Positions 4,439 to 29,424 of a stretch of DNA of 64,000 nucleotides are shown here, in pieces. Origin of the DNA: Patescibacteria group bacterium (GTDB lineage Bacteria > Patescibacteriota > Microgenomatia > UBA1400 > PJMF01); assembly GCA_040879165.1 (NCBI GenBank), contig JBBDKV010000017.1, positions 23,739 through 87,738 of the forward strand, given 5' to 3'. Every line of letters begins with the position of its first letter. Position 1 is the first letter of the stretch. The notes beneath the pieces are model-generated. The model saw only the letters and a list, made by a program, of their open reading frames with translations, was not told where the DNA came from and did no database searches. The position numbers and the translations under genes were made by a program.

Positions 4439-4547
4439 TATACGCGACACTTTTTCAGCCATATTTGTGTGCATACTGATTTGGACTAGGCATCACTGTT
4501 CCTTCATGTGGTCAAATACGGGAGAGTGTTAGAATCCTACTCACTCG

Positions 4548-5204
4548 TTACTCTACTATCTCACCCTTCAACTTTTCAGCTTCAATATGAAAAAAATCAC
4601 TTAAGCTTTTCCTATCAAGAGAACCAATGATAATTGGATCGTCGAGGTGAGCATCTGCTTCAAATAATCTGCTAGCTAACTGGAGTGGGTCAACATGCCA
4701 ATCAAACTTCAATTTTGCTTTCATTCGCAGCTCCTCAGTTCCAAAACCATACTTTCGAATGATTGTGTACAGATCAAAATAATCTCGGCCTCTTGGTTTT
4801 TGAACAATAGTAAACAATTTGTTGGTGGCAATATCAATAACACTGTCAACAAGGAGACCATCTTTTTTCTCTGGATGCTCAATTTGTTCAAAAGGATAAT
4901 AGGTGAACTCTAGTTTGAGAACAGACTCATCCTTGAAACGAATAAAGTATAAATTTCGGTTAAAGCTATTTTGGTAGTCAAATGAAATAAATTCTAACTT
5001 CTTTTGTAGGCTTTTAATTATGACTGTAATGTCTTGCGCATCAAATTCTTCGTGACAGAAAAAATCAAGATCTTCTGAATAACGATGTTGCAAGTAATAG
5101 TGTGAAAGGGCTGTGCCACCACTAAAATAAAAGTGCTCTGCTAGACTCGTTTCTGAGATTAATTTGAGCACTAATTGTTGCTGCTCAGTTAGGATTGTGA
5201 CCAT
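4548..5204 (-). CDS. AbiEii-like nucleotidyltransferase (DUF1814), type IV toxin-antitoxin toxin-like
   Basis: FYFSGGTALSHYYLQHRYSEDLDFF matches the GGTAL...RxSxDLDF signature of AbiEii/DUF1814 nucleotidyltransferases. Confidence 0.7.
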   Translation of the reverse strand: MVTILTEQQQLVLKLISETSLAEHFYFSGGTALSHYYLQHRYSEDLDFFCHEEFDAQDITVIIKSLQKKLEFISFDYQNSFNRNLYFIRFKDESVLKLEFTYYPFEQIEHPEKKDGLLVDSVIDIATNKLFTIVQKPRGRDYFDLYTIIRKYGFGTEELRMKAKLKFDWHVDPLQLASRLFEADAHLDDPIIIGSLDRKSLSDFFHIEAEKLKGEIVE

Positions 5205-5497
5205 ACAATGCTCTTTAAGTAGTTCCGCTTGGCTGCATCAATGTCAAGTTTATCCCAATTAGCTTTTAATTTTTCTAATGAAAGCTTTGTGTTGTTGAGA
5301 CCAAAATTGATTTGCTGCTCCAATACAAATTGATCATACTTAGCAGAATTTTTCTTAAGTCGAGTAGTGTCAGTGTTCCAGTTGTACATAGTAGTATTAT
5401 ACTTGAAAATGGGCGCATTTAATAGGTTTGACCGGAAAAAGAAACTAATTTTGGGTTGATAAATCAAAGCATATTGTTTTTGAGCAAAAATCCTCAA
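5189..5497 (-). CDS. Hypothetical small protein, possible cognate antitoxin or partner of the AbiEii-like gene
   Basis: Its 3' end overlaps the start of the AbiEii-like gene by 16 nt on the same strand. No recognisable wHTH. Confidence 0.3.
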   Translation of the reverse strand: MRIFAQKQYALIYQPKISFFFRSNLLNAPIFKYNTTMYNWNTDTTRLKKNSAKYDQFVLEQQINFGLNNTKLSLEKLKANWDKLDIDAAKRNYLKSIVWSQS

Positions 5498-5523
5498 AAA
5501 CCTTTATTTATATGCATGGAAGC

Positions 5524-5883
5524 TCATTCAGAAATCTCTGCTATCGCTTCAATTTCAATCAATACTTTGGGATCACCCGGAAATTCTGGGAGAGCAGCTA
5601 CTCCAATAGTAGTTCTTGCTGGCAGATGTTTGCCAAAAAAATCCGCATAAAGCTCATTCATCTGAGGAAATAGCGATAAATCAGTCATAAACACCGTTGT
5701 CTTAACAACATTAACTTCAGTTAAGCCAGCAAGTTCTAAGACATTTCTTAAATTTTGGAAAATATTTTCAGTCTGAGATTGAAAGTCCTCAGGAATTACC
5801 TTGGTTTTTGAGTCTGATCCCACTTGACCAGATATAAAAACCATATTTCCAGTTTTGTAAAAAGGGCTGAGAGGTGCTTTCAT
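5524..5883 (-). CDS. ridA: RidA/YjgF family reactive intermediate deaminase
   Basis: 119 aa. ISGQVG...TTVFMTD...ARTTIGVAALP resembles the YjgF/RidA fold signature. Confidence 0.8.
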   Translation of the reverse strand: MKAPLSPFYKTGNMVFISGQVGSDSKTKVIPEDFQSQTENIFQNLRNVLELAGLTEVNVVKTTVFMTDLSLFPQMNELYADFFGKHLPARTTIGVAALPEFPGDPKVLIEIEAIAEISE

Positions 5884-6274
5884 ATGATTATTATAATGCA
5901 GTTTAAAAAAAATAGAACTGGTTGTTTAGACAAAGGGAAGAGCGTCTTGAATTTGGGGTAGCGTACACGAGTGTGTTAACACCTTGTTTGCGTGTTATAA
6001 CAATACTTGGTAGTAATTATAGATCGGACTTAACCAAAGTGAAGTGCAGTGTTTAGCTTAGTGAGCTTATTAACATAATTTTATAAATTTGAATAAGGAG
6101 AAAAATGCACGAAGATGAGCACAATTACGAACAACAAATTTTAGATGAGTACAAACGCAAGTTTCATGAAACACAAAAAATTATAAAGAGTCATCTAGGT
6201 AATTCAGGGTGGTGGGTGATAGGCAGCAATAGTAGACGAGGATTACTCGACATTGCCCCAATTTCAGGTGAAAT

Positions 6275-6875
6275 CAACTACCACCACCAGAGGTGGTGGT
6301 ATGCCTTCCGCCTCAAAGGCGCTACTTGTTACAGTGTATGTTGTTCGTGACTTAGCCCTTTTGCTCTTTTTGTTGCTGCCACTTTACATACTTTTTTATT
6401 TTATCTTCGTCCAGTCCTACAGTACTCACACAATACCCTCTGCTCCATAAGTGTTTTCCCCAGTATTGTTTGGTGAGATCTTTCCTGCTCCCAAACAACT
6501 TGATTGCTACTTTCCCTTTCAGATATCCCATTACCTCACTGACGGAGTACTTGGGTGGAATACTGATGATTAAGTGAACATGGTCGGGTTGAATGTTAAT
6601 TTCTTCGATCTCAACCTTGTTCTTTTGACCACACAATCGGTACAGCTGGTTTCTTACAAATACTTCTGACTTTCCTTCTAGTACTTTATACCTATATTTG
6701 GGACAAAATACTATGTGATATGTACAGTGCCAGATACTGTGCGATAATCGGTTATACTTTTTCATAGCTCCTCCTGGAACTCGCCTTTCAGGCGGAGCTA
6801 TTTTATTTTACTATACTCGTTGAACGTTAATGAGCGCTCACCGCCTGTAGGCGGTGGATATCTGAGGGATTATAT
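6275..6875 (-). mobile_element. IS200/IS605-family insertion sequence (tnpA only) with subterminal hairpins
   Basis: TnpA ORF flanked by perfect hairpins caccacc-aga-ggtggtg (6284-6301) and cgcc-tcaaa-ggcg on one side. The other side has gcctttcaggcgg (6783-6797) and accgcctgtaggcggtgg (6840-6858). Boundaries are approximate. Confidence 0.7.
6352..6765 (-). CDS. tnpA: IS200/IS605 family transposase TnpA (HUH Y1 transposase)
   Basis: 137 aa. WHCTYHIVFCPKYR followed by the HUH motif DHVHLIISIPP and a C-terminal Tyr-bearing helix (YVKWQ). Confidence 0.9.
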   Translation of the reverse strand: MKKYNRLSHSIWHCTYHIVFCPKYRYKVLEGKSEVFVRNQLYRLCGQKNKVEIEEINIQPDHVHLIISIPPKYSVSEVMGYLKGKVAIKLFGSRKDLTKQYWGKHLWSRGYCVSTVGLDEDKIKKYVKWQQQKEQKG

Positions 6876-6911
6876 AAGCCAGGAGGAATTTGGGCAGATA
6901 TAGACCTGCTA

Positions 6912-7430
6912 GTGGTTAATTCAAAAAAAGAAGCTTTTGACGAGTTAAGGAAAATGACAACCCCTCTGCCAATTGGCGGTGGTGTACTTACTACCTACTT
7001 ATCTATTGATGAAATTGACCCAGAAACAGAACTACCAAGCTCAGTAATAGCTGGTCTTAGTAGGCAACAAAATATACGTATTGATCCACAAATCTTCAAG
7101 ACGTTTTATGTAGAACAGATGGGTGAAAGATTTCCAACGGTATGTAGAGAAACTCTACTGGCATTATATTATCTTGGGGGAATAAGAGAAAAAGACATAC
7201 CAAGAATGAAAGAGTTAGAAGATTCGATCATGGCGCGTCCAACATGGACTACTCAAATTGACTCATATCGTTTGATAAAAGAGAAATGGGGAAATAAGGA
7301 CCGGCCTTTGATGGACAGAATAGGAAACGTAGTTGATAAATCAAGTTTATATAGGTTATTGAGAAGAAGAATGCCAAGAGTTACTGGAGCTATATTAGGA
7401 AAGTGTAAGAAAGTATTATATGGAAAGTAA
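6912..7430 (+). CDS. Hypothetical protein (GTG start), cargo of the integrative element
   Basis: 172-aa ORF with no recognised motif. It lies between the IS200 copy and the restriction-modification module. Confidence 0.4.
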   Translation: MVNSKKEAFDELRKMTTPLPIGGGVLTTYLSIDEIDPETELPSSVIAGLSRQQNIRIDPQIFKTFYVEQMGERFPTVCRETLLALYYLGGIREKDIPRMKELEDSIMARPTWTTQIDSYRLIKEKWGNKDRPLMDRIGNVVDKSSLYRLLRRRMPRVTGAILGKCKKVLYGK

Positions 7431-7565
7431 ATATTTTAATTGATATATCAATACGTGGGTAGAGTACGGGAGCTTGTTAGCAATCTTTTTTCATACTATA
7501 TTGAAGATCAAAATAATATGAACATCTCATACTAAACTAAACCCGAGCCAAGTAAGATACAGAAT

Positions 7566-8171
7566 TTACTTTTCCCAAACAATATGCCCATTCATATCAT
7601 TCTTTTCATAGACCTCAAGAATTTCAGTACAAAACCGCAGGAGGTTTTCATCACCCGATTGTTTAGCTATTTCATATAGCCGAATATACATCTTCTTGCC
7701 TGTTTCAGTTTGCTTGAAGTTTTTCTTCAAAAAATTATGTTGACTACAAAGCGTTTGTCCGTTTTGTAGTGTTGCTCCACCACCCAAGTCTTTGGGTTTA
7801 ATGTGGTCAGCATGAATTTCAACTCCTTCATTTCTACCTCTGCCACATATTACACACTTGTAGTCATCTCTCTCAAAAATTTGCTTTCTCAATGCTGGAG
7901 TAAAGTCTTCAAGCTCTCTGATTTGAATCATACTAGGGTCATATCTATAAATGCCCTTGTTCACTTTGATGAGGTATCCATTTTGGTGCAACTTTCTGAT
8001 TGCTCTATCAGGGTCTCGAAATATCTCACCAGTTCTTTCTAGCCATTCACCTGTAGCCCAGTCAACAATTTCAGGATGACTAATATCTCTCTTGGGATGT
8101 CCTTCAAAATACTCCATTATCAATCCACTTTGGCTGAGCTTTTCTTTTTTTATATCGTCGCTTTTTGACAT
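7566..8171 (-). CDS. HNH endonuclease, putative restriction endonuclease of a type II R-M system
   Basis: CVICGRGRNEGVEIHADHIKPKDLGG...NGQTLCSQHN is an HNH motif with flanking Cys pairs. The N-terminal region is wHTH-like. It lies 17 nt downstream of a C5-methyltransferase on the same strand. Confidence 0.65.
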   Translation of the reverse strand: MSKSDDIKKEKLSQSGLIMEYFEGHPKRDISHPEIVDWATGEWLERTGEIFRDPDRAIRKLHQNGYLIKVNKGIYRYDPSMIQIRELEDFTPALRKQIFERDDYKCVICGRGRNEGVEIHADHIKPKDLGGGATLQNGQTLCSQHNFLKKNFKQTETGKKMYIRLYEIAKQSGDENLLRFCTEILEVYEKNDMNGHIVWEK

Positions 8172-8187
8172 ATTACTTCTTCCTTTT

Positions 8188-9183
8188 TTATTTTAACACT
8201 TTGAGTAAAGATGCGATTTGTTTTGCAACTGCTTCAACCACAGGGACTGCAACAGAGTTCCCAAATTGCCTGTACATTTGTGTCCTAGAAACAGGCACTT
8301 TGAAATCCTTAGGAAATCCCATAATAGCCTTACATTCATTTACAGTGAGAAGTCTCAGCCCAGTTTCTCCATCTTTGACAAATGTTCCAGTAAGTCTTTG
8401 TATCTTGTGGTAAGTCGAAACAAGAGTTTTTACTTGTATCCTTGAACTTTTATCAATGATCTTTGGTCTACCATCATCTTTTTTGAACAGGTAGCTTTCT
8501 TGCAAGTGCTTCGATATGGAATATCCAGAAACGTCTTGCTCAAGAAAATCATTTATGTATGATTTTTCCACGCCACCTGTAGGGAAAGTGAAACTTCTCT
8601 CCTTGAGAAGGTCTTTTCTAAATCCAACAATGTAAATCCGCTTTCTAAATTGTGGCACTCCAAAATCAGAAGCATCTAAAACTTTAGTAAAAACTTTATA
8701 CCCAGCTTCATCTAAGGAGTCTAAAATAACTTGAAATGTTCTTCCACTATCGTGACTGACTAAACCTGGCACATTTTCTAATAAAAATGCTTTGTTTTTT
8801 TTATTCTCGATAATTCTCAGTACGTCATAAAATAGAGTACCCTGAGTAGCATGTAGAAACCCTTGTCTCTTGCCAATAGAACTGAATGGTTGACAGGGGA
8901 ATCCGCCTACTAATACATCAAAATCTGGAATTTCTTTCTCATCTATCTTTGTTATATCACCATGTGGAATCTCTCCAAAATTAGCCTCATAGGTTTTTTG
9001 ACTATGCTTGTCCCACTCTGAAGAAAAAACACATTCTCCCCCAGCATTTTCAAATGCAATTCTAGTGCCTCCAATCCCAGCAAATAAATCAATAAACTTA
9101 AAATCACCAACAGTTGATCTTTTATTCTGGTCTTCAAACAGACTAGGTGCACTCATTTTAGATAATTTTTTTGTGTTACTCAT
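8188..9183 (-). CDS. DNA (cytosine-5)-methyltransferase
   Basis: Motif I FIDLFAGIGG, motif IV GGFPCQPFS and motif VI ENVPGL, with target-recognition and C-terminal motifs present. Confidence 0.9.
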   Translation of the reverse strand: MSNTKKLSKMSAPSLFEDQNKRSTVGDFKFIDLFAGIGGTRIAFENAGGECVFSSEWDKHSQKTYEANFGEIPHGDITKIDEKEIPDFDVLVGGFPCQPFSSIGKRQGFLHATQGTLFYDVLRIIENKKNKAFLLENVPGLVSHDSGRTFQVILDSLDEAGYKVFTKVLDASDFGVPQFRKRIYIVGFRKDLLKERSFTFPTGGVEKSYINDFLEQDVSGYSISKHLQESYLFKKDDGRPKIIDKSSRIQVKTLVSTYHKIQRLTGTFVKDGETGLRLLTVNECKAIMGFPKDFKVPVSRTQMYRQFGNSVAVPVVEAVAKQIASLLKVLK

Positions 9184-9207
9184 ATCAAAGACTCGTTTTT
9201 GAAAAAA

Positions 9208-9408
9208 CTATGTTTCCAATTTTCGTTTATCTAAAAAGTTTTGCAAATCATCTTCCTTGACTCGCAGTTCTTGCTCCAATTTGTAGGCGGGCAGTTTTTT
9301 CGTTTTGATATAGCGGTAAATGGTCATCTTGCTCACTTTGAGAGCTTGGGCGACTTCTTCAATGGTGAGGAGCGTCTGTGTTTGCACTATATTGATAGTA
9401 TCACTCAT
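9208..9408 (-). CDS. Small HTH DNA-binding protein (AlpA/excisionase-like), possible controller of the R-M operon
   Basis: 66 aa. LTIEEVAQALKVSKMTIYRYIKTKKLP is a classic HTH. It sits directly upstream of the methyltransferase on the same strand. Confidence 0.6.
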   Translation of the reverse strand: MSDTINIVQTQTLLTIEEVAQALKVSKMTIYRYIKTKKLPAYKLEQELRVKEDDLQNFLDKRKLET

Positions 9409-9463
9409 TCACATTTGTTTACAAGGGTGATATAGTTTTTCTCAAGAATTATCAAATATAAGT

Positions 9464-10621
9464 ATGAAACAAAGTTTTTTCCATCAAGATTTTTTGAAAC
9501 ACGTTGATCTCAATCTTTTCAACCAGTATTTACTTTCCAAGAATCTAACTGAAATAAGTACTCCAGATAGTAAGGCTGACAAAGCTCAAGCAATGTCTGA
9601 CTATTTAGTCAGTTTGACCGATGCGGACGGCGATATTGTGGTCAATGATCTTATGGTAGTGAGAGATTTGTCATCAGACGGCGGTGTGATTGCCATTATG
9701 GAGCTATCGGAGGAAGCTACTTTCAAGCAAGCCCTCTCGGAGCTGACAAGTAACATCAATCGGGTGCTATATTGCTTACTATACAAACCAGATTTGATTG
9801 AACCAGCTCTCAAGTTGAAGCAAATCACAGCGACTGAAAACTTCCACGTTCGCAGGGTGACAAAAAGCGTTGAGGCTGACCAAGTATTAGCCAAGCTCCC
9901 TGAGTTCAAACTTGAGTTGACTGCTTTCTTGCAGAAAGAGGAAGCAAAAGGAGCGAACTGCCAGATAGATAGCTATCAATTCAAAGATAGAGTTTGCTTT
10001 TTTGCCTATCCAGAAGATCATCCCAAATCATTGAATCTTTATCAGAACGGGAAGCTCAATCCTACAGTAGTGCATCCTAGCTTTGAGTTGGTTTTTGTCT
10101 ACTATCCAGAAATGAAACAGCTAGAAATAGCAACCCGAATGAGAAGCAAAAAATTACAAACTCTGTTCAACCTTTTCAATCGTGCTGTGCTAGACGACTC
10201 TCAGCCAGTACCAAACAACCAAGACACACTCAACCTCGATGTGTTGCTTACTGATGGATTTAGCTTCATTTTTGACCCGAGCTACCAAGTTGATTCTATA
10301 TGCGTAACTCAGATTCGCCTTGACTACAAGTACAACCGCAAGAAACGGTTTATCACCCATGTTGATGAGGGTAACGGCATGGAACAAATCTTAGAGGAGT
10401 TAAAATATCGCAATTTACGAGGTGATAGTCTACAACACTATGTGGTTGCCCAAGCTACCATCAAATTGCGTTTCAAACAGTTTGGACGAAGCAATCGGGT
10501 CACCACACTCTTGACCGCACCAGACAAAATAAAGCTCAATGAAACAAATCCTCACCAACTCGCCAAGAAGTGCCTACAGGACTGGAAAATCATCAATGAG
10601 CCACTCACAGACGCTGAATAA
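9464..10621 (+). CDS. Hypothetical protein, 385 aa, no recognisable domain
   Basis: Long uninterrupted ORF with a plausible RBS. Its 3' end overlaps the start of the next ORF, indicating translational coupling. Confidence 0.5.
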   Translation: MKQSFFHQDFLKHVDLNLFNQYLLSKNLTEISTPDSKADKAQAMSDYLVSLTDADGDIVVNDLMVVRDLSSDGGVIAIMELSEEATFKQALSELTSNINRVLYCLLYKPDLIEPALKLKQITATENFHVRRVTKSVEADQVLAKLPEFKLELTAFLQKEEAKGANCQIDSYQFKDRVCFFAYPEDHPKSLNLYQNGKLNPTVVHPSFELVFVYYPEMKQLEIATRMRSKKLQTLFNLFNRAVLDDSQPVPNNQDTLNLDVLLTDGFSFIFDPSYQVDSICVTQIRLDYKYNRKKRFITHVDEGNGMEQILEELKYRNLRGDSLQHYVVAQATIKLRFKQFGRSNRVTTLLTAPDKIKLNETNPHQLAKKCLQDWKIINEPLTDAE

Positions 10622-11675
10622 GCTACTAGATGCAGGTATCAACATCAAGGACTTTCAAATAAGTGCTAAAGATTTAGACCAACAATTTAGGCAGGTTGGT
10701 AACATCTTACTCAATCTTGGCTGGTTTACCCAAGATTATGCCACTGGTTATCAATGCTCGCAGTGCGGTGCTGTTCATGAGGTGGTGGCTTTCAATGGCA
10801 AGTATTTTATTGGCTGTGATGTGGACGGAGATTCTGGTTTAGAGACACTGAGCAAAGATGATCTATTGATCTATCGTTTTTCAGCCACGAAGTTCTTTGA
10901 ATGGTTGCAACAATCTTTCTCCTTGCAGGGTAATGTTGAATCCACTGACGATAGGGTATTACTTGGTCAGGGAACGGTAAACGGCAAGCAACGTCTGTTT
11001 ATATTCAGCCATGAAAACTCACCCGAAGCAAGAAAAGTACTCTGTCAGAAATACCTTATCAGTCAGCCTTTGATTCTCTACCTCAGCACCATTCACGATA
11101 ATCACAATCAGGGATATGACATCAACTTGGCTCATTATCTAGTAGTGCAAGAAATGGGTTTGAGCATCGATACAAACTCAGCTTTGAGTGCGATTGCAGA
11201 TTCCATACCGCCGTTTGCAGGTGAGGCTCAGACAAACTCAAGCATTTATGCCATTGAATTGAAGCTTGTGGGTGACAAAATTGTGCTAGTTGGCACAGCT
11301 CTTGGTGGTTCGTATCCAGCGTTCAAAGCCAAGAAGAAAAGAAGCACTGCCATGTCTAGATTGTTGAGAACCCTGCTCAATTTGCATGAGAACGATAAGG
11401 AAACTACCTCTGTAATTTACAAACAAAGCGTGCTTGAGGCGAACTACATTGACCCACGAAAAAACAAGCTAAATGACCTTGCAGAAATTGATCTCAGTCA
11501 AGACAAGCGACCACTGAGTGAACTCTGCTCACTCTTACTACCATACTTACTCGCACACCGACACCACAAAGACGACGGCTTAGTGGTCGAGTTCAAACCC
11601 GCTTTGTCGCAAGAGAGCTGGAACAGACTCCCAGACTCAGAAAAACAGAAGATTCTAGCTTCAAAGGCTAATTAG
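10539..11675 (+). CDS. Hypothetical protein, about 360-378 aa, with an N-terminal CxxC motif
   Basis: Long ORF. CSQCGAVHE suggests a zinc-ribbon-like element. The likely true start is Met at 10592 (MSHSQTL), overlapping the upstream ORF by about 30 nt. Confidence 0.5.
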   Translation: MKQILTNSPRSAYRTGKSSMSHSQTLNKLLDAGINIKDFQISAKDLDQQFRQVGNILLNLGWFTQDYATGYQCSQCGAVHEVVAFNGKYFIGCDVDGDSGLETLSKDDLLIYRFSATKFFEWLQQSFSLQGNVESTDDRVLLGQGTVNGKQRLFIFSHENSPEARKVLCQKYLISQPLILYLSTIHDNHNQGYDINLAHYLVVQEMGLSIDTNSALSAIADSIPPFAGEAQTNSSIYAIELKLVGDKIVLVGTALGGSYPAFKAKKKRSTAMSRLLRTLLNLHENDKETTSVIYKQSVLEANYIDPRKNKLNDLAEIDLSQDKRPLSELCSLLLPYLLAHRHHKDDGLVVEFKPALSQESWNRLPDSEKQKILASKAN

Positions 11676-11837
11676 CCAAACCTCGTCAATCCTCAGTTTG
11701 TGCAATTACTTGCATTTAGCAACGTCCATCAGTTGTGTTTTTTAGTACTTTCTGCGTTTGCGTGCATTTAGCGTTTTGGATCAAAAACCTAGGTGACAAT
11801 CCTCTTGCGAACATAAAAATTAGCAATGAGGATAAGC

Positions 11838-12086
11838 ATGAAAGACGCACACAATTACTTCACTACTTACGATCTGAACCTGTCAGCCGTATTGGTTTCA
11901 CAAAACTTCATTTTAGAAGAAATAGAAAAACCTGAAAGCGGGAAAGCTCTTTTTTACTTCAAAAAAAGCGATGCTCTGCTAGAGACTATTGATCGCTACT
12001 GGAAAAACCAGCTCCAAATCTCCCCTCAAACCTTATTTACCAGTTTGAAATCCATCAAGAACCGCCTGTACAGCGGTTGGAAGTAA
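11838..12086 (+). CDS. Small DUF5659-like protein typical of CPR and phage mobile elements
   Basis: MKDAHNYFTTYDLNLSAVLVSQNFILEEIEK...ALFYFKK resembles the small DUF5659 family. Assignment from memory, not a search. Confidence 0.35.
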   Translation: MKDAHNYFTTYDLNLSAVLVSQNFILEEIEKPESGKALFYFKKSDALLETIDRYWKNQLQISPQTLFTSLKSIKNRLYSGWK

Positions 12087-12286
12087 AAGTCATGTTGAGT
12101 CGTGCCTCAGTGACAAAGTTCCAGCAAATCTACTTCCAAGAGTACGGCATCAATCTAGATGAGCAGACTGCCTACGAGCTGGCGAATAACCTCGCAAACC
12201 TGTACCGCAGTGTCTACCTGCCAGACACAAAAAATATAAGTCAAAAATATGAAACGAACACATCAACTCAGACGAATCAAAACTAA
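12077..12286 (+). CDS. Hypothetical small protein
   Basis: 69-aa ORF overlapping neighbours by a few nt in a compact same-strand array. Confidence 0.25.
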   Translation: MEVKVMLSRASVTKFQQIYFQEYGINLDEQTAYELANNLANLYRSVYLPDTKNISQKYETNTSTQTNQN

Positions 12287-12302
12287 GAAGTCTTACTCAT
12301 CT

Positions 12303-12668
12303 ATGGAGTTGGCTAACTTGCTTGGTGTTCATGTTCAAACAGTACGATCATGGGCAAGTAATGGTTTAGAACCCCTCAGCCCAAACGCTCACAGACCTTT
12401 GTTTTTAGGTCAGACAGTGAAGTCCTATCTTTCCAAACTGCAAGACGCTCGCAAAGTGAAGCTCCAAGTGGGTGAGTTCTACTGCCTACGGTGTCGAGTC
12501 GCCATCACGCCAGAGTTAGTGATTGAGGTTGATCGTCATGTCACCATCGGCAAGCACAAAGACTCGATTTTACTTACCGCCCACTGTCCACAGTGCAACT
12601 GCCCCGTCAATAAGTTTTCTAGCCGAATATCAACCAACCAGAAAGGAAAATATGCTCCTGACGCATAA
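12303..12668 (+). CDS. HTH (MerR/excisionase-like) protein with a C-terminal Cys4 zinc ribbon
   Basis: MELANLLGVHVQTVRSWASNG is an HTH. CLRC...CPQCNC gives four Cys. It lies upstream of the integrase genes. Confidence 0.5.
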   Translation: MELANLLGVHVQTVRSWASNGLEPLSPNAHRPLFLGQTVKSYLSKLQDARKVKLQVGEFYCLRCRVAITPELVIEVDRHVTIGKHKDSILLTAHCPQCNCPVNKFSSRISTNQKGKYAPDA

Positions 12669-12996
12669 ACGGTACGAAGTCCCTGGCGACTGGTATCAAC
12701 CCAAACAGCAACTCCTCACCAAGCCGAGTGTGATGTTGGCTGAGTACTACGAAACATCATCAAGCTCTGGTGATTGGAGTGGGTACTTCTTGCAGAAAAT
12801 CGGTCAAGCCTATCACCTGATTTTATTCACTCAGGAAAACCTTTATCCAGAGGATGGCTTTGAGTTGATGACAGGTGTGGTAATCCACACATTCAAATCC
12901 GAGCCAAACAAACCCGATGTTGCAAAGGTCATTATCTCAGTACTTGAACACTCTCGTAATCACTCACTTAGTAATAACGCAGAAATGAAAGGATAA
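12652..12996 (+). CDS. Hypothetical protein
   Basis: The ORF starts at ATG 12652, overlapping the stop of the previous gene. No motif recognised. Confidence 0.35.
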   Translation: MLLTHKRYEVPGDWYQPKQQLLTKPSVMLAEYYETSSSSGDWSGYFLQKIGQAYHLILFTQENLYPEDGFELMTGVVIHTFKSEPNKPDVAKVIISVLEHSRNHSLSNNAEMKG

Positions 12997-13148
12997 CTAT
13001 GTTGAATCACGCTCAATTATCGTTTTTAGCAGTAATACTCTGGGTTGGAATAACCTATCTGGCAACTGCCAAGAAAGAGTTTCCCTGGCATCTAGTAATT
13101 TTGGCAGTAATTATCACACTCGAATTACTCTCGAAATAGAAAGGCATT

Positions 13149-14264
13149 ATGTCAAAAACCAAAGACAAAAACGAACGCATCAAACGCAAGTATCTCAACT
13201 GGCTACAAGAGGCTGAGGGATTTTCAGAGAAGTCGATCACGGCGGTAGAAAAAGCTCTGTGGAAATATGAAGATTTTATCAAGGATTCAGACTACAGCAC
13301 GTTCAATCATAAGCAGGCTGAACAATTCAAGAAATATCTGACAACCAACAAAAATAAGGTCAGTAACAAAATCCTCTCACTGAGATCGCAATATCACATC
13401 CTCAGGCACGTTCGCAACTTCTTGACTTGGTTATCTGGACAGCTTGGCTATAAGTCCCGTATCTCAACCTACGATGTCCAGTACTTGCAACTGAGCAAAA
13501 AAGATCGGCGGGTTGCGACCTCTGCCTCACTTCCAAAGTATCCCACCCTTGAGCAGATCAAACAGCTTTGTAGCTTTTCAGTTCAAACTGAGCTTGACCA
13601 GCGAGATCGAGCGTTGATAGCCTTTACTGCTCTAACAGGCATGAGAGATCAAGCGATTGTTACCTTGCCACTTGGTTGTTTTGACCAAGAGAAAATGCTC
13701 GTGCAACAGCTCCCAAGCAAAGGTGTTCAAACCAAGTTCAGCAAGGACATTTATACTACTCTTTTTCAGGTAGATGAAACGCTGGCTGGCTACTTTTTGA
13801 AGTGGTACGCTTATTTGAAAACGGAGAAGCATTTTGGGCTGGAAGATCCGATATTTCCGAGTACAGAGGTAGGTTTTGTTAGTAAAAATCACCATGCCTT
13901 TACCCCTATTGGTATTAGTAAAGAGTTCTGGGCAGATACCAATCCGATGCGAAAGATTTTTCAGGAGCGAAGCAAGCAAGCGAACGTGCCTTACTACACC
14001 CCCCATAAGTTCAGGCACTTCATCATCAATGAGGCTCAGAAACACATCACGAGCATTGAACAGCTCAAGGCTCTCAGTCAGAACCTGGGTCATGAAAACA
14101 TAAGCACCACTTTTCATGGCTACGGAGCAATTGATACTTATCGAGTCAATGAGTTGGTCAGTTCTATTGATTTTTCAGGACTTCCCAAGAACCAAGCAGA
14201 AGAAGCTCAACTTGAAAGAATCGCTGATCTTGTCGCTAAAAAATTAGGAAGAAATGAGCTATAA
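13149..14264 (+). CDS. Tyrosine recombinase / phage-type integrase
   Basis: The C-terminal catalytic region has HKFRHF and LGHENISTTFHGYGAI, the R..H..R..Y signature. Confidence 0.85.
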   Translation: MSKTKDKNERIKRKYLNWLQEAEGFSEKSITAVEKALWKYEDFIKDSDYSTFNHKQAEQFKKYLTTNKNKVSNKILSLRSQYHILRHVRNFLTWLSGQLGYKSRISTYDVQYLQLSKKDRRVATSASLPKYPTLEQIKQLCSFSVQTELDQRDRALIAFTALTGMRDQAIVTLPLGCFDQEKMLVQQLPSKGVQTKFSKDIYTTLFQVDETLAGYFLKWYAYLKTEKHFGLEDPIFPSTEVGFVSKNHHAFTPIGISKEFWADTNPMRKIFQERSKQANVPYYTPHKFRHFIINEAQKHITSIEQLKALSQNLGHENISTTFHGYGAIDTYRVNELVSSIDFSGLPKNQAEEAQLERIADLVAKKLGRNEL

Positions 14265-14294
14265 TGTTAGTGTTGACCCAAGTTATAGTGGTGC

Positions 14295-16040
14295 ATGAAA
14301 AAAGGCAGTTCTGCCAACGTATGCACTATGTTGGGTCAACCAGGACTGTCTTTTTATATGAGAATAAGAAAAACACTTACTAGCCTCAAGCCAAGAAAAT
14401 CTGGTCACCCCAAGCAGAATCGGTACATTCTATATGCCCGTAAGTCTACTACCTCAGAAGACCGTCAAGTTGCTTCGATTGAGTCCCAGATCGAAGTGAT
14501 GAAAGAGGTAGCTCGTGAGCATGATTTGGAAGTTTCAGAGGTATTGAGTGAAGCAGGTTCAGGCTTCAAGATAGGTAGACAAGCGTTCAATGCCATGATC
14601 GAAAAGATCGAAAGCGGTGAAGCTGATGGCATCATTGTCTGGAAGCTCTCACGCTTATCTCGTAACCCTGATGATGCGGGCAAAATCATGGGCTTACTGC
14701 AACGAGGTGAAATCAAGCACATTCGCACCGCAGACCGCAACTGGTATCCAGAAGACAACGTGATGATGATGTATGTTGAGTTTGGTATGACCAACCAGTT
14801 TAGTCGTGATCTGAGTTCAGACACTCGCCGAGGATTAGTCAAAAAAGCTGAGCGTGGTTGGTTGCCGAACGCCATTCTCCCACTTGGCTATATGCACAGC
14901 CCATACAAAAAGTTAGGTGATGAAGAAATTATCATTGATAAAAGCCGTTTTGACTTGATTCAAGAGGGTTTGAAGCTGGTAGCTTCTGGACAGAAAACAC
15001 CTGTTGAAGCTCATGGCTATTTAGTTACTCAAGGTGTTGTGGGAAAAAGAAGTGAAGCATTACCTAAAAGCACTTGGTACAAGATGTTAGTTGAACCACT
15101 ATACGCAGGGACTTTTGAGTATCCAATAGGTAGTGGTCAGTTTTATGACTCCAAAGCACCCAGAGCCATAGAACCGACTGAGTACGATGCCATTCAAGTT
15201 GTTTTAGGTAGAAAAGATAAGCCTCGACCCAAGACTCACTTTTTGCCTTACACGGGTTTGATGAAGTGCGGTGAGTGTGGTTGCTCCATTACTGCTGAAA
15301 AGAAGCGGAAAGTGCAGAAAAATGGTAACGTGCATCACTATATCTACTATCACTGTACCAAGAAAAAAGGCGAGTGTGGTCAGCCGTGTACGCCTGTTGA
15401 TACACTTGAGAAGCAATATAAGTCCATTTTGAAACGTATCAAAATCCCCTTAGCCTTTCACGAATGGGCTATTGATGAGATCAAATATGACCAAGAAAAA
15501 GTCATCAGGGATCGTGACACCAGCCTACAACGAACTCGAACAAACTACGATGACTGCCTGAGTGAGATTGATAACTTGGTAAAGAAATACCTTGAGGGGA
15601 AAGTGCCAGAAGACTACTATGATCGCAACCTTGCCAAGCTCAATAAAAACAAAAAGACATTGGCGAAAATCTTGGAGGGTATAGACAAAGGTGTCGATGA
15701 AAACTTGGAAAAAATCGATAAAGACCTAGATTTTGCCGTAACAGCCAGAAGACGCTTCAACCAAGGCAACGACTCCAAACGTCGAGAGATCATTTCCTAT
15801 TTAGGCTCGAACCTCATCCTCAAAGACCATTCACTCGGCATTGAGCTGAGAAAACCGCTGGAATTGGTGGCAGAAATTGCAGAAGAAGTCAATGCTGTTG
15901 CAGAAAAGTTCGAACCTCTAGAAAATGCTGATAATTCGGCACAATTTAAGTTGTATTTGTCTGAAAATCCTGCAATGGGTGGTATACCGGACTTGAACCG
16001 GCGACCTCCGCTGCCACAGAGCGGCGCTCTAACCAACTGA
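14295..16040 (+). CDS. Large serine recombinase (resolvase domain + recombinase domain + zinc ribbon)
   Basis: YARKSTTSEDRQVASIESQ carries the catalytic Ser. GIIVWKLSRLSRN is also present. The CGECGC...YYHCTKKK zinc ribbon fits this family, as does the 581-aa length. The 3' end overlaps tRNA-His. Confidence 0.85.
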   Translation: MKKGSSANVCTMLGQPGLSFYMRIRKTLTSLKPRKSGHPKQNRYILYARKSTTSEDRQVASIESQIEVMKEVAREHDLEVSEVLSEAGSGFKIGRQAFNAMIEKIESGEADGIIVWKLSRLSRNPDDAGKIMGLLQRGEIKHIRTADRNWYPEDNVMMMYVEFGMTNQFSRDLSSDTRRGLVKKAERGWLPNAILPLGYMHSPYKKLGDEEIIIDKSRFDLIQEGLKLVASGQKTPVEAHGYLVTQGVVGKRSEALPKSTWYKMLVEPLYAGTFEYPIGSGQFYDSKAPRAIEPTEYDAIQVVLGRKDKPRPKTHFLPYTGLMKCGECGCSITAEKKRKVQKNGNVHHYIYYHCTKKKGECGQPCTPVDTLEKQYKSILKRIKIPLAFHEWAIDEIKYDQEKVIRDRDTSLQRTRTNYDDCLSEIDNLVKKYLEGKVPEDYYDRNLAKLNKNKKTLAKILEGIDKGVDENLEKIDKDLDFAVTARRRFNQGNDSKRREIISYLGSNLILKDHSLGIELRKPLELVAEIAEEVNAVAEKFEPLENADNSAQFKLYLSENPAMGGIPDLNRRPPLPQSGALTN

Positions 16041-16052
16041 GCTAATACCACC
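15977..16052 (-). tRNA. tRNA-His (GTG)
   Basis: Manual cloverleaf. G-1 plus acceptor GTGGTAT/ATACCAC with C73. D-arm GCTCAGTTGGTTAGAGC. Anticodon loop CTGTGGC. T-arm GCCGG-TTCAAGT-CCGGT. Confidence 0.85.
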
Positions 16053-16200
16053 ATTAGTGAATTACGTCTCACAATATATTCAAGAAGTGTTTATTATACT
16101 AGATTGGTTCCCAGATGTATATAAAATTTTTCTGTTACACGATCATTTTGAAAGCCACTAATTTCCAAGCATGCCACACAATTCTCATCCTTCGAAAGTC

Positions 16201-16953: not shown

Positions 16954-16984
16954 ACGCTTTCAGTATAGTAAGTTTTTGAAATCT

Positions 16985-17051
16985 ACACCAGACTCGAAAC
17001 GGCAACCTTCCTGCTTAGCGGAACGCTCTAACCAACAGAGCTACTACCACC
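16985..17051 (-). pseudogene. Degenerate tRNA-like fragment resembling the 5' half of tRNA-His
   Basis: GGTGGTAGTAGCTCTGTTGGTTAGAGCG matches the tRNA-His acceptor and D-arm at 26 of 28 positions. The anticodon arm forms only 4 bp with an 8-nt loop, and no T-arm or acceptor closure is present. Confidence 0.3.
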
Positions 17052-17143
17052 AAGAATCCGTATTATACTAGAAATTTAGCGATTTTTATACCGAAACGTC
17101 CTAGTTTGTGCCTATTTTGAATAAAAATTGATATAATACCGCC

Positions 17144-18184: not shown

Positions 18185-18224
18185 TTTTTCTTAAATCATC
18201 AGCGATACTCGTGTGTCAAGCATC

Positions 18225-26334: not shown

Positions 26335-26424
26335 GATAGATCGCTTTCTATTATGGTATTATACCAGCTACTTACTCGTGTTTTGTGAATCTTATTTGTA
26401 GGGATTGATTATAAGGAAGAAAAG

Positions 26425-28128: not shown

Positions 28129-28249
28129 CTGAAATAGTTTGCTAACAGAATTATTCAAGTAGATTTGTTAAAAAATAAAGTTGCGAAGAAATATAGTTTA
28201 CACAATAGCACTTTGAAGTGATAATCTTCGAACATAATACTTACTTACT

Positions 28250-29305: not shown

Positions 29306-29424
29306 GAGCTCTTATCGTCTCATAATGAGTCGATTTTTACAATCAGTATCATTTCTTGAGGTTTGGCTATAGGAATTTGCGTGACAACTCCGGAGGTAAG
29401 AAGAAAGATGCTATTAATCACTCG

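What the first reader, a model, noticed from the sequence alone, without database searches (positions are those of the whole stretch)
4440..16060. Integrative element of about 10 kb inserted next to tRNA-His, carrying an AbiE-like toxin, IS200, an R-M module, unknown coupled ORFs and two recombinases
Everything between the histidine-kinase operon and tRNA-His looks like cargo rather than core genome. The cargo comprises an AbiEii-like nucleotidyltransferase, RidA, an IS200 copy, an HNH/C5-methyltransferase module with a small HTH, two large unknown ORFs, DUF5659-like and HTH/Zn-ribbon genes. It ends with a tyrosine integrase immediately followed by a large serine recombinase that abuts the 3' end of tRNA-His. 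No capsid, terminase or tail genes are present, so this looks like a non-phage integrative (defense-island-type) element.
Basis: partly seen in the sequence, partly recalled or inferred. Interest (0 to 1): 0.7.

Follow-up and report, generated by a model that had tools for sequence, protein, structure and literature searches.

The report
Stacked mobile elements beside tRNA-His
The 11.5 kb between a sensor-kinase operon and the tRNA-His gene of this Patescibacteria genome looks like a stack of three foreign DNA units, apparently laid down one after another by a large serine recombinase that targets the last bases of tRNA-His, a target rarely reported for this enzyme class.

Summary

The block is foreign and non-phage, but the evidence points to a tandem array at the tRNA-His 3' end, not one 10-kb element.

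- **Unit B (7461-15980)** is an intact 8.5-kb element. It carries an HNH nuclease and C5 methyltransferase, then a conserved core running from an HTH_17 gene to the tyrosine and serine recombinases.
- **Units A1 (4513-5959) and A2 (5960-7460)** have no recombinase. A1 holds AbiEii and RidA; A2 holds IS200.
- **Left-end motif.** Each unit starts with a ~30-nt motif, (T)GGGT-N3-GTACGGGAGNNTGTTAGAAC. There are three copies, all on the + strand and all intergenic.
- **No tRNA duplication.** No copy of the tRNA 3' segment exists at the left boundary. The junctions share only TGGGT (tRNA positions 71-75), which fits serine rather than tyrosine recombination.
- **Relatives.** Recombinases 62-89% identical abut tRNA-His in seven other elements. 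The 95% relative sits at a non-tRNA site, and similarity to the window stops at 15980. The slot left of HTH_17 holds a different restriction-modification system in each relative.
- **Transfer.** Element proteins are 89-98% identical where shared host proteins are 48-64%.

No empty site or circular form was found. The tyrosine recombinase's role is unknown. I rate this a new variant of a known kind.

The parts
4509..4538 (+). Left-end motif copy 1: degenerate core TGGT, then CAA-ATACGGGAGAGTGTTAGAAT. Proposed outer left boundary of the island, 71 nt after the histidine-kinase stop codon (4438).
   Evidence: the DNA search found 2 hits in the window against 0.03 expected. It is one of the 11 copies used to build the nhmmer profile, so its score (E 8e-6) is by construction. 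Sequence shown.
4548..5204 (-). AbiEii-family nucleotidyltransferase (toxin of AbiE-type toxin-antitoxin / abortive infection systems), unit A1
   Evidence: Pfam PF08843 1e-22; 26 PADLOC AbiEii models
5189..5497 (-). Small ORF overlapping the AbiEii start by 16 nt. A possible antitoxin by position only; no family match.
   Evidence: ORF list; no Pfam, PADLOC or PHROG hit; not called as a gene on the Logan contig
5524..5883 (-). RidA / L-PSP family protein, unit A1
   Evidence: Pfam PF01042 2e-31
5955..5985 (+). Left-end motif copy 2 (GGGGT-AGC-GTACACGAGTGTGTTAACAC), degenerate. Proposed boundary between units A1 and A2.
   Evidence: It is the only hit outside the training set when the motif profile is run over 1.78 Mb (E 0.009, 16.7 bits). 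It is intergenic and on the + strand.
6352..6765 (-). IS200-type Y1 transposase, the only copy in the window, unit A2. An 81-aa ORF lies beside it at 6105-6350(+).
   Evidence: Pfam PF01797 3e-37; no second copy by blastn or tblastn
6912..7430 (+). Unknown 172-aa ORF, unit A2
   Evidence: No Pfam, PADLOC or PHROG hit
7440..7486 (+). Junction between units A2 and B: palindrome TTGATATATCAAT (7440-7452), core TGGGT (7456-7460), then AGA-GTACGGGAGCTTGTTAGCAA. Proposed left end of the intact element.
   Evidence: It is one of the 11 profile-building copies, so its nhmmer score (E 1e-6) is by construction.
7566..8171 (-). HNH nuclease, candidate restriction endonuclease of the cargo R-M pair
   Evidence: Pfam HNH 6e-7; weak PADLOC REase_II 3e-5. 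The same slot holds R-M systems in L082, L083, L084, L112 and L121; L118 carries a type ISP enzyme in its cargo.
8188..9183 (-). C5 cytosine DNA methyltransferase (cargo)
   Evidence: Pfam PF00145 1e-104; PADLOC MTase_II / orphan MTase
9208..9408 (-). HTH_17 (excisionase / MerR-like) small DNA-binding protein. The conserved core begins inside it, at about 9244.
   Evidence: Pfam 4e-16. blastn similarity to L082 and L083 starts at 9247 and 9244.
9464..10621 (+). Core protein of 385 aa, no family. The predicted fold resembles CENP-N/Chl4, TBP and RdgC, which suggests DNA binding.
10596..11675 (+). Core protein of 359 aa (378 aa from the ATG at 10539), overlapping the previous gene. It has an N-terminal winged helix and invariant C-C-H-C residues. 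Its C-terminal third is variable between elements.
11826..12086 (+). DUF5659 protein (core)
   Evidence: Pfam PF18903 3e-12
12077..12286 (+). Small conserved core ORF (64-69 aa)
   Evidence: tblastn 96% in L082, 89% in L083, 60% in L084, and 44% in the Prim-Pol elements L085-L088
12249..12668 (+). HTH plus CxxC...CxxC zinc-ribbon protein. It travels with the recombinase pair, so it is a candidate directionality factor or regulator (inferred).
   Evidence: Weak MerR/HTH_17 hits. Homologue present in L082, L083, L084, L112, L113, L118 and L121, directly upstream of the recombinases in L084 and L118.
12652..12996 (+). Conserved 114-aa ORF with no family match, followed by a called 46-aa ORF at about 12999-13139
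   Evidence: Gene calls on L001, L082, L112 and L120; 75-96% identical in relatives
13149..14264 (+). Tyrosine recombinase of 371 aa. By eye the R, H-x-x-R, H and Y catalytic motifs are present. It lies directly upstream of the serine recombinase in this sub-family. Role unknown.
   Evidence: Pfam Phage_integrase 1e-9; phrog_216 integrase. It is 91-94% identical in L082, L083, L112 and L121, truncated in L113, and absent from L085-L090.
14295..16040 (+). Large serine recombinase and the proposed integrase. The last 21 codons are the antisense strand of tRNA-His.
   Evidence: Resolvase 4e-21 plus Zn_ribbon_recom; phrog_95 integrase 3e-62; TP901-1 integrase catalytic domain. Homologues abut tRNA-His in seven other elements.
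15960..15980 (+). Right end of the element: TCTGAAAATCCTGCAA plus core TGGGT (15976-15980). It also encodes the recombinase residues SENPAMG.
   Evidence: Similarity to L082, which sits at a different insertion site, ends at 15980. The arm has 0-3 mismatches in L082, L083, L084, L112, L113 and L115 and is also present in L121.
15977..16051 (-). tRNA-His (GUG), the integration target. G-1 is encoded at 16052. The core TGGGT corresponds to tRNA positions 71-73 plus two following nucleotides.
   Evidence: ARAGORN; Rfam 66.5 bits; sequence read

Best explanation
The region 4509-15980 is a genomic island built by repeated site-specific integration at the 3' end of tRNA-His. The integrase is the large serine recombinase (LSR) encoded at 14295-16040.

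**The attachment site.** The element's attP consists of three parts. The first is the last ~20 nt of the recombinase gene (TCTGAAAATCCTGCAA). The second is a 5-bp core, TGGGT. The third is the motif NNN-GTACGGGAGNNTGTTAGAAC, which forms the element's left end. Crossover within TGGGT falls on tRNA positions 71-73 plus the next two nucleotides, which are identical in the element arm. The tRNA is therefore left intact, and no long direct repeat is created.

**The three units.** The unit nearest the tRNA (7461-15980, 8.5 kb) is an intact element. It carries a type II-like restriction-modification pair (HNH nuclease plus C5 methyltransferase) as exchangeable cargo. It also has a conserved core: an HTH_17 protein, two DNA-binding-like proteins of unknown function, DUF5659, an HTH/Zn-ribbon protein, a tyrosine recombinase and the LSR. 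The two distal units (4513-5959 with AbiEii and RidA; 5960-7460 with IS200) each begin with a copy of the left-end motif but have no recombinase. They are either decayed older elements pushed away from the tRNA by later arrivals, or recombinase-less cassettes moved in trans.

**Shown.**
- The gene content.
- The exact right end of the element.
- The recurrence of the LSR clade at tRNA-His.
- The motif copies and their exclusivity to these islands.
- An attP-like junction in a relative.
- Element proteins far more similar between genomes than the shared host proteins.

**Inferred.**
- That the LSR, rather than the tyrosine recombinase, catalyses integration.
- The order of arrival of the units.
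- That the HNH protein is the restriction enzyme.
- How the element moves between cells. No transfer genes are present, so uptake of the circular form or hijacking of a phage are both open.
For: 1. **Right end.** L082 carries a 95%-identical LSR and a 90-92%-identical core, but lies at a non-tRNA site. Similarity stops at window 15980 (CAATGGGT|GGTATACC versus CAATGGGT|CCATTACC).
2. **Target recurrence.** LSR homologues 62-89% identical abut the tRNA-His 3' end in L083, L084, L085/86 (L088 and L090 encode the identical protein), L113, L118 and L121/122. The L085-L090 elements have a Prim-Pol gene and no tyrosine recombinase. In L113 the tyrosine recombinase is truncated to 166 residues.
3. **Short core.** Only TGGGT is shared among the three junction types: arm followed by tRNA, arm followed by left-end motif, and other sequence followed by left-end motif.
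4. **Left-end motif in the window.** The stringent pattern gives 2 hits against 0.03 expected. A profile run over 1.78 Mb finds only its 11 training copies plus window 5955-5985 (E 0.009). All copies are on the + strand and, in the window, intergenic.
5. **attP-like junction.** In L112 the recombinase 3' end is joined directly to the motif (...CCGCAATGGGT|AGAGTACGGGAGGGTGTTAGAACC), as expected for tandem units.
6. **Independent validation.** In L121, fetched after the profile was built, the profile finds copies at 616-646 and 1570-1597. Both are on the + strand, after a host-like VIT1 gene and before the element's cargo. By eye there is a degenerate copy at about 953. The independent contig L122 begins exactly at the 1570 motif.
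7. **Exchangeable cargo.**
   - The slot left of HTH_17 holds HNH plus C5 MTase in the window.
   - L112 has NgoPII RE plus C5 MTase.
   - L083 and L121 have type III Res plus Mod; L082 shows Res up to its contig end.
   - L084 has a 648-aa C5 MTase plus DUF4145.
   - L118 carries a type ISP enzyme plus an RT in its cargo.
   - L085 carries type I HsdM/HsdS plus AAA_15.
8. **Horizontal transfer.** Element proteins are 89-98% identical to those of L082 and L121. The shared host proteins are 64% (L113, which is on the same contig as L082) and 48% (L121) identical, and the tRNA-His sequences differ.
9. **LSR architecture and active site.** Resolvase plus Zn_ribbon_recom domains, phrog_95 integrase, a match to the TP901-1 integrase catalytic domain, and a YARKST serine motif.
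10. **Composition.** Cargo is 35.6-38.5% GC against flanks of about 45%.
11. **Precedent.** Tandem arrays in which newcomers push older elements away from a tRNA are documented for tycheposons (10.1101/2020.12.28.424599) and for integrative elements generally (PMC7192596).
Against: - No empty-site allele, circular junction or excision product of this particular island was found.
- The nearest relatives with the flanking genes are only 57-69% identical and are not syntenic on the left side.
- The two distal motif copies are degenerate. Copy 1 has TGGT in place of TGGGT, and copy 2 scores only 16.7 bits.
- Canonical LSRs recombine only attP with attB. Serial insertion next to an already occupied tRNA needs either a relaxed requirement for the tRNA-distal half-site or another route. 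Neither was tested.
- The right-arm sequence also encodes conserved C-terminal residues of the recombinase, so its conservation is not independent evidence of att function.
- The left and right arms show no clear inverted symmetry (and my reading of the sequences).
- The intact tyrosine recombinase has no assigned role in this model.
- Three homologues (L082, L112, L115-117) are not followed by a tRNA.
Confidence: 0.72

Rival explanations
1. A single ~11.5-kb integrative element. AbiEii, RidA, IS200, the R-M pair and both recombinases would move together, with one attL near 4510 and one attR at 15980. The internal motif copies would be fortuitous, or internal sites with another role such as terminators or regulator-binding sites.
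For: Low GC is continuous from 4.5 to 9.2 kb. Only one set of recombinase genes is present. An LSR could in principle excise the whole block using the outermost sites.
Against: - The copy at 7456-7486 is a strong match to the motif that follows the recombinase 3' end in L112 and that precedes the cargo of the element in L084 and L121.
- None of the genes at 4548-7430 has a tblastn match (E 1e-5) in any related element fetched up, and the longer ORFs have none (E 1e-10) in the set that includes L121.
- Related islands show the same pattern: short gene sets without a recombinase, separated by motif copies (L112 with 6 copies, L121 with 3, L002 with 1).
Confidence: 0.12
2. Classical tRNA-targeting island integrated by the tyrosine integrase (13149-14264). 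On this view the serine recombinase would serve another purpose, such as resolving multimers, inverting DNA, or mobilising a nested element.
For: - Most tRNA-integrated islands use tyrosine integrases: 44.5% of tyrosine-integrase elements against 4.9% of serine-integrase elements use t(m)RNA genes (PMC7192596).
- The tyrosine recombinase appears intact and is 91-94% conserved among close relatives.
- An HTH_17 excisionase-like gene is present.
Against: - There is no displaced tRNA fragment and no direct repeat longer than 5 bp at the ends.
- It is the serine recombinase gene, not the tyrosine one, that forms the junction in every relative.
- Elements without a tyrosine recombinase (L085-L090), or with a truncated one (L113), occupy the same position on tRNA-His.
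Confidence: 0.08
3. A fixed, no longer mobile relic. The block would be an old insertion inherited vertically and decaying, and the similarity to other genomes would reflect shared ancestry of the locus rather than transfer.
For: No empty site, circular form or polymorphism was found. The core module has host-like GC, 42.8% against 42.1% for the window. The distal units clearly lack recombinases.
Against: - Element proteins are 89-98% identical to those in genomes whose shared host proteins are 48-64% identical and whose tRNA-His sequences differ.
- The closest relative sits at a different chromosomal site.
- Both recombinase ORFs are full length and, by eye, keep their catalytic motifs.
- Modules are mosaic between elements.
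Confidence: 0.08

Closest known systems
Integrative genetic elements / genomic islands mobilised by large serine recombinases (phiC31, Bxb1, TP901-1, A118 integrases; TnpX/TndX-type elements)
   Same: - Recombinase with Resolvase plus Zn-ribbon domains, with the recombinase domain detected in homologues.
- The gene sits at the very end of the element, next to the att site.
- The common core between junctions is tiny (5 bp here).
- There are no long direct repeats.
- Secondary-site use is seen (L082).
   Different: - The target is a tRNA gene 3' end. Mageeney et al. 2020 (PMC7192596) state that this had not been reported for serine integrases and that it needs proof.
- The crossover lies inside the recombinase's own reading frame, so its C-terminal tail changes on integration.
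- The gene is paired with a tyrosine recombinase.
- The host is a Patescibacteria (CPR) genome.
- No phage or conjugation genes are present.
Tycheposons and their tandem arrays in Prochlorococcus genomic islands (Hackl et al., 10.1101/2020.12.28.424599)
   Same: - Small cargo-carrying elements at tRNA genes in a streamlined genome.
- Tandem arrays in which newcomers push older units into the island.
- Degraded remnants and recombinase-less units separated by att fragments.
- Some relatives carry a Prim-Pol replication module (L085 family).
   Different: - 910 of the 937 Prochlorococcus elements described in that paper use tyrosine recombinases, and the integrated elements are flanked by partial tRNA repeats.
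- Here the junction repeat is a non-tRNA 30-nt arm plus a 5-bp core, and the enzyme at the junction is an LSR.
- The cargo is defence (R-M, AbiE) rather than nutrient acquisition.
- No sequence homology to tycheposon genes was tested.
Mobile restriction-modification units linked to integrases (Furuta et al. 2010, PMC2853133)
   Same: An R-M gene pair sits as the exchangeable cargo of a small integrase-bearing unit. Different R-M types occupy the same slot in related elements.
   Different: That work surveys R-M genes linked to mobility genes in general. I saw only its title and abstract, so I did not check whether it includes a serine-recombinase, tRNA-His-specific family.
Integron cassette arrays (IntI/attC)
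   Same: A directional array of short, mostly promoter-less gene sets, each bounded by a copy of a conserved recombination-site-like motif, lying next to a recombinase gene.
   Different: - No IntI-type integrase signature was tested or seen.
- The motif is not an attC-like imperfect palindrome folding as single-stranded DNA.
- The array is anchored on a tRNA gene.
- The resemblance is architectural only.

Membership tests
Large serine recombinase (serine integrase) | N-terminal resolvase catalytic domain with the nucleophilic serine | tested here: met
   PF00239 3.6e-21 over residues 45-188. YARKST motif in the translation. Matches the TP901-1 integrase catalytic domain, 3e-8.
Large serine recombinase (serine integrase) | Large C-terminal region with a recombinase domain and a zinc-ribbon domain | tested here: met
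   PF13408 Zn_ribbon_recom 8e-7 over residues 318-373. PF07508 Recombinase is recorded for many homologues but is below threshold in this protein. phrog_95 integrase 3e-62 over residues 28-530. The coiled-coil insertion was not examined.
Large serine recombinase (serine integrase) | Catalyses attP x attB recombination with a 2-bp staggered crossover | not testable with these tools
   Only inferred, from a 5-bp common core (TGGGT) shared by the junction types.
tRNA-integrated genomic island (Islander-type) | Integrase-bearing foreign block abutting an intact tRNA gene | tested here: met
tRNA-integrated genomic island (Islander-type) | Displaced fragment of the target tRNA gene at the far end of the island | tested here: not met
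   No copy of the tRNA-His 3' part lies to the left. The far end is marked instead by a non-tRNA motif.
tRNA-integrated genomic island (Islander-type) | Tyrosine integrase as the integrating enzyme | tested here: inconclusive
   A tyrosine recombinase is present, but it is dispensable for the location at tRNA-His in relatives.
Tandem array of integrative elements | Several same-orientation copies of the att core or arm delimiting adjacent units | tested here: met
   Three + strand copies in the window. An attP-like junction between two units in L112. The same layout in L121, found with a profile that had not seen it.
Tandem array of integrative elements | Each unit independently mobile, or independently found elsewhere | tested here: inconclusive
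   Relatives of unit B's core occur elsewhere with other cargo. Units A1 and A2 have no relatives in any fetched locus.
Type II restriction-modification system (cargo) | Adjacent methyltransferase and cognate endonuclease | tested here: inconclusive
   The C5 MTase is certain (1e-104). The HNH protein gives only weak REase_II matches, 3e-5. Restriction activity and target specificity are not testable here.
AbiE toxin-antitoxin / abortive infection system | AbiEii nucleotidyltransferase paired with an AbiEi-type antitoxin | tested here: inconclusive
   AbiEii is met. The upstream overlapping ORF 5189-5497 matches no AbiEi model or any other family.
Prophage or phage satellite | Capsid, terminase, portal or tail genes, or satellite hallmark genes | tested here: not met
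   No such Pfam or PHROG hit. No relatives in INPHARED or IMG/VR. Only a distant relative (L085) has a GP3_package gene.

The most novel reading that the evidence does not exclude
The repeated 30-nt motif and the conserved tyrosine recombinase could together form a cassette-exchange system layered on the LSR element. The LSR would anchor the platform at tRNA-His. The tyrosine recombinase would recombine motif copies with each other, capturing, excising and shuffling recombinase-less defence cassettes. A subset of these cassettes end in the palindrome TTGATATATCAAT. This would be an integron-like defence-gene array in the CPR, built from unrelated parts. The evidence does not exclude it.

- Several cassettes carry a right arm that is not a remnant of an LSR gene (window 7440-7452; L084; two or three in L112).
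- The tyrosine enzyme appears intact, is 91-94% conserved, and has no other assigned role.
- The arrays are strictly directional.
Probability: 0.15. Interest if true: 0.85.

Novelty: new variant of a known kind. Interest (0 to 1): 0.58.

Why it matters
**A rarely reported enzyme-target pairing.** Serine integrases were "not known for targeting tRNA genes". The one large survey that saw a few cases asked for experimental proof (PMC7192596). This locus and its relatives provide a coherent clade, with eight elements counting the window at 62-95% recombinase identity. All sit at the same few bases of tRNA-His, and candidate attP, attB, attL and attR sequences are defined to within 5 bp. That makes the question directly testable.

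**A view of gene exchange in the CPR.** The locus shows how Patescibacteria may exchange defence genes. These organisms have tiny genomes, and I found no described family of integrative elements for them in the held literature. The vehicle is an 8-14-kb element with a fixed core and a swappable R-M slot. It accretes into arrays beside tRNA-His, much as tycheposons do in Prochlorococcus.

**A possible tool.** An LSR whose target is a conserved tRNA end could serve for integration into uncultured or CPR-like hosts.

None of this changes basic concepts. It extends known ones to a new enzyme-target pairing and a new phylum.

Tried and rejected
- **Displaced tRNA copy at the left boundary.** I searched for the tRNA-His 3' segment or any direct or inverted copy of the right end, using repeat finder, a 3-mismatch pattern search, blastn-short and Smith-Waterman against shuffles. 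Nothing exceeded chance.
- **Empty-site search.**
  - Exact look-up of the kinase and of the right-flank ORF returned only same-sample contigs that carry the element.
  - The kinase scan of metagenome contigs gave relatives of at most 59% identity with no downstream synteny.
  - The enolase scan of GTDB genomes gave a best hit of 69%. There (L002) tRNA-His has other left neighbours and a motif copy of its own 2.7 kb away, so it is not a clean empty site.
- **Inverted repeats** that might serve a DNA invertase or shufflon role for the tyrosine recombinase: none convincing.
- **Phage origin:** no hits in INPHARED or IMG/VR.
- **Function of the two unknown core proteins.**
  - The PDB sequence search with the 9464 profile found nothing below E 0.4.
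  - Fold searches give only a generic DNA-binding resemblance.
  - The 9464 protein resembles CENP-N, TBP and RdgC; the 10596 protein resembles winged-helix regulators.
  - I do not assign either a function.
- **Motif as a displaced tRNA fragment.** I considered whether the 30-nt motif is a displaced tRNA-His 3' fragment. By eye, similarity to the T-arm and acceptor stem is too weak and the spacing differs, so I rejected this.
- **Fragment at 16986-17052 as a functional tRNA.** ARAGORN and the Rfam tRNA model do not score it.

Full report
**1. What is in the sequence**

- AbiEii: 4548-5204(-).
- A small overlapping ORF: 5189-5497(-).
- RidA: 5524-5883(-).
- IS200 Y1 transposase: 6352-6765(-).
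- An unknown ORF: 6912-7430(+).
- HNH nuclease: 7566-8171(-).
- C5 methyltransferase: 8188-9183(-).
- HTH_17: 9208-9408(-).
- Two overlapping family-less ORFs: 9464-10621 and 10539/10596-11675.
- DUF5659: 11826-12086.
- Small ORFs, including an HTH/zinc-ribbon protein: 12249-12668.
- Tyrosine recombinase: 13149-14264.
- Large serine recombinase (LSR): 14295-16040.

tRNA-His(GUG) lies at 15977-16051 on the minus strand. The LSR frame continues 64 nt into it.

The left neighbours are a response regulator, a FIST protein and a PAS histidine kinase ending at 4438. To the right lie two unknown ORFs, then tRNA-Arg(TCT), enolase, EF-P and EpmA.

The organism is a Patescibacteria (CPR) bacterium. The best enolase matches in GTDB genomes are CPR MAGs at 69% or less. 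An identical core protein is on a 113.6-kb NCBI MAG contig named "Patescibacteria group bacterium".

GC content is 35.6-38.5% across 4513-9243. It is 42.8% across 9244-15980 and about 45% in both flanks.

**2. The right end, and which recombinase sits on it**

A homologue search with the LSR gave thousands of hits. I fetched the genomic context for several.

L082 has a 95%-identical LSR and a 90-92%-identical core, but it is not next to a tRNA. Its similarity to the window stops at 15980. The two junctions read:
- window: ...CCTGCAATGGGT|GGTATACCGG
- L082: ...CCCGCAATGGGT|CCATTACCCA

This fixes the right end of the element at the last bases of the tRNA. TGGGT on the plus strand corresponds to A71 C72 C73 plus the next two nucleotides.

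Homologues at 62-89% identity abut tRNA-His in the same geometry in seven other elements. These are L083, L084, L085/86 (L088 and L090 encode the identical protein), L113, L118 and L121/122.

Two observations separate the roles of the two recombinases.
- The L085-L090 elements carry a Prim-Pol gene and no tyrosine recombinase.
- L113 has only the N-terminal 166 residues of the tyrosine recombinase.

So the position at tRNA-His tracks the serine enzyme.

L082's genome already has a related element on its own tRNA-His (L113, same contig). That may explain why L082 sits at a secondary site.

**3. The left end and the internal boundaries**

No copy of the tRNA 3' segment, and no significant direct or inverted copy of the right end, exists to the left.

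I then compared the cargo regions of related elements and found a short shared sequence. It resolves into this motif:

(T)GGGT-N3-GTACGGGAGNNTGTTAGAAC

The evidence that the motif marks element left ends is as follows.
- **Window copies.** The stringent pattern occurs twice, at 4516-4534 and 7464-7482, against 0.03 expected.
- **A third copy.** A profile built from 11 copies was run over the window plus 117 loci (1.78 Mb). It recovers only those 11 copies and one new hit, window 5955-5985 (E 0.009).
- **Orientation.** All copies are on the same strand as the LSR, and the three window copies are intergenic.
- **attP-like junction.** In L112 the motif directly follows the LSR's 3' end (...CCGCAATGGGT|AGAGTACGGGAGGGTGTTAGAACC). 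This is the arrangement expected where two units lie in tandem.
- **Independent test.** L121 was fetched after the profile was built. It shows a host-like VIT1 gene, a motif copy, a 67-aa gene, a degenerate copy, a MOSC gene and another motif copy. A 13.8-kb element (type III R-M plus core plus both recombinases) and tRNA-His follow.
- **Assembly break.** An independent assembly of the same population (L122) breaks exactly at the motif that starts that element.

The junction types share only TGGGT. This holds whether the sequence around the core is the right arm, the tRNA, the motif or something else. A core that short fits serine-recombinase att sites and does not fit the long identity blocks of tyrosine-integrase tRNA islands.

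The window island therefore reads, from left to right:
- kinase stop at 4438
- motif copy 1 (4509-4538)
- unit A1: AbiEii, the small ORF and RidA
- motif copy 2 (5955-5985)
- unit A2: an 81-aa ORF, IS200 and the 172-aa ORF
- palindrome plus motif copy 3 (7440-7486)
- unit B: the intact element, 7461-15980
- tRNA-His

**4. The element family**

The core from HTH_17 to the LSR is shared with L082, L083, L112 and L121, and more distantly with L084 and L113. The slot to its left holds a different restriction-modification system each time.
- Window: HNH plus C5 MTase.
- L112: NgoPII RE plus C5 MTase.
- L083 and L121: type III Res plus Mod (L082 shows Res up to its contig end).
- L084: a long C5 MTase plus DUF4145.

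More distant relatives also carry defence cargo.
- L118: a type ISP enzyme plus a reverse transcriptase.
- L085: type I HsdM/HsdS plus an AAA_15 ATPase.

This pattern supports reading the HNH protein as the restriction partner of the methylase, although its own REase matches are weak.

Modules are mosaic.
- L112 has 91% tyrosine recombinase and 89% 385-aa protein, but only a 72% LSR.
- L121 has 91% tyrosine recombinase and an 89% LSR, but only a 30% 385-aa protein.

Element proteins are 89-98% identical between the window and L082 or L121. The shared host proteins are 64% (L113, on L082's contig) and 48% (L121) identical, and the tRNA-His genes differ. This indicates recent transfer between distantly related hosts.

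No phage structural genes, no conjugation genes and no relatives in phage collections were found.

**5. The unknown core proteins**

The 385-aa protein has 13 homologues, none with a Pfam domain, and matches a function-less PHROG.
- Its AF2 model has pLDDT 83.
- Foldseek TM scores are only about 0.25.
- I take this as a hint of DNA binding, no more.

The 359-aa protein has an N-terminal winged helix and four invariant Cys/His residues. Its C-terminal third is poorly modelled and variable. That third is distantly related to the C-terminus of the RT protein in L118.

In the L085 family a Prim-Pol occupies this part of the element. The two proteins might therefore belong to a replication or maintenance module. 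This is inference.

**6. Mechanism proposed**

- The LSR recombines attP with the tRNA-His 3' end, crossing over inside TGGGT. The attP consists of the right arm, TGGGT and the left-end motif. The tRNA keeps its sequence.
- The recombinase loses its natural C-terminal tail and stop codon. It acquires 21 codons of antisense tRNA here, and other tails elsewhere (633 aa in L082, 576 aa in L112).
- Later arrivals insert next to the tRNA and push earlier units leftwards, where they decay. In L121 the arm before the main element (GAGTAAAGTCTTGTAATGGGGT) still resembles an LSR gene 3' end, which fits decay by deletion.
- Other cassettes end in the palindrome TTGATATATCAAT instead (window 7440-7452; L084; L112). 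They may be a separate, recombinase-less cassette type.
- Canonical LSRs do not recombine attP with an occupied junction. How arrays form is therefore an open point.
- The tyrosine recombinase appears intact and is conserved, but it has no role in this model. Plausible roles are multimer resolution of a circular form, or motif-by-motif cassette exchange.

**7. Comparison with what is known**

By architecture this is an LSR-mobilised integrative element. By layout it is a tandem array of the tycheposon kind.

It fails the Islander-type criterion of a displaced tRNA fragment.

Mageeney et al. (PMC7192596) found t(m)RNA targets for only 14 of 297 serine-integrase elements. They stated that such use had not been reported and needed proof.

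My literature searches found no description of this family or of LSR elements in Patescibacteria. Those searches cover only the held library.

**8. Verdict**

- **Observation:** confirmed.
- **Interpretation:** partly supported. The block is an island at tRNA-His with defence cargo and no phage genes, but it looks like an array rather than one element. The serine enzyme is the likely integrase, and the predicted tRNA duplication is absent.
- **Novelty:** new variant of a known kind.

The main weakness is the lack of an empty site, a circular junction or any experimental recombination data for this locus.

Noticed in passing
window 16986-17052 (-): A degenerate fragment derived from tRNA-His lies 1 kb to the right of the functional gene. 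29 nt (17024-17052) are 93% identical to the 5' part of the tRNA, with weaker similarity through the T-arm. The 3' acceptor strand is missing, and the similarity stops roughly where the LSR crossover core lies. ARAGORN and the Rfam tRNA model do not score it. It may be the scar of an older event at an ancestral tRNA-His copy.
   Followed up: partly
window 16052-18224; L002 7075-7095; L083 11695-12970; L084 11689-12234; L121 15451-16831; L113 16072-17770: The spacer between tRNA-His and tRNA-Arg(TCT) is hypervariable. It is 22 nt in L002, a sigma-70 gene in L083, a 165-aa ORF in L084, a 449-aa ORF in L121, and two genes in L113. In the window it is 2.2 kb with two ORFs (16201-16953, 17144-18184) that have no homologue in any fetched locus. 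This may be a second insertion hotspot at the tRNA-Arg 3' end.
   Followed up: partly
window about 26000-29500: A second low-GC stretch (36-41% against about 44-45% around it), which may be another island.
   Followed up: no
L082 and L113 (same NCBI contig JBDTME010000004.1): About 35 kb at the end of this contig looks like a chain of elements. It has a decayed relative on tRNA-His, cassettes, and a different 517-aa serine recombinase whose 3' end is also followed by the left-end motif (L113 6515-6546). An AAA_13/21 ATPase gene, a tRNA-Cys gene and the 95% relative of the window element at a non-tRNA site follow.
   Followed up: partly
L115 2700-2720 (-) and 5629-5649 (+): In L115-117 the tyrosine and serine recombinase pair is bracketed by the right-arm sequence and an inverted copy of it with 4 mismatches. 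The pair lies beside biosynthetic-looking genes (FemAB, Methyltransf_24, pyridoxal decarboxylase), and no tRNA follows. This could be chance or a different mobile configuration.
   Followed up: no
window 11200-11805: The C-terminal part of the 359-aa core protein and the spacer after it form the only stretch of the core that is not conserved with L082 and L083 at the DNA level (53% protein identity against 93-98% for its L082 neighbours). It is a hypervariable or swapped module inside an otherwise conserved core.
   Followed up: partly
L002 4247-4277: The closest GTDB relative by enolase (69%) has no recombinase at tRNA-His. It still has one left-end motif copy 2.7 kb downstream of the tRNA, with an APH-like kinase gene and an unknown gene in between. 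Recombinase-less cassettes at this site therefore seem widespread.
   Followed up: partly
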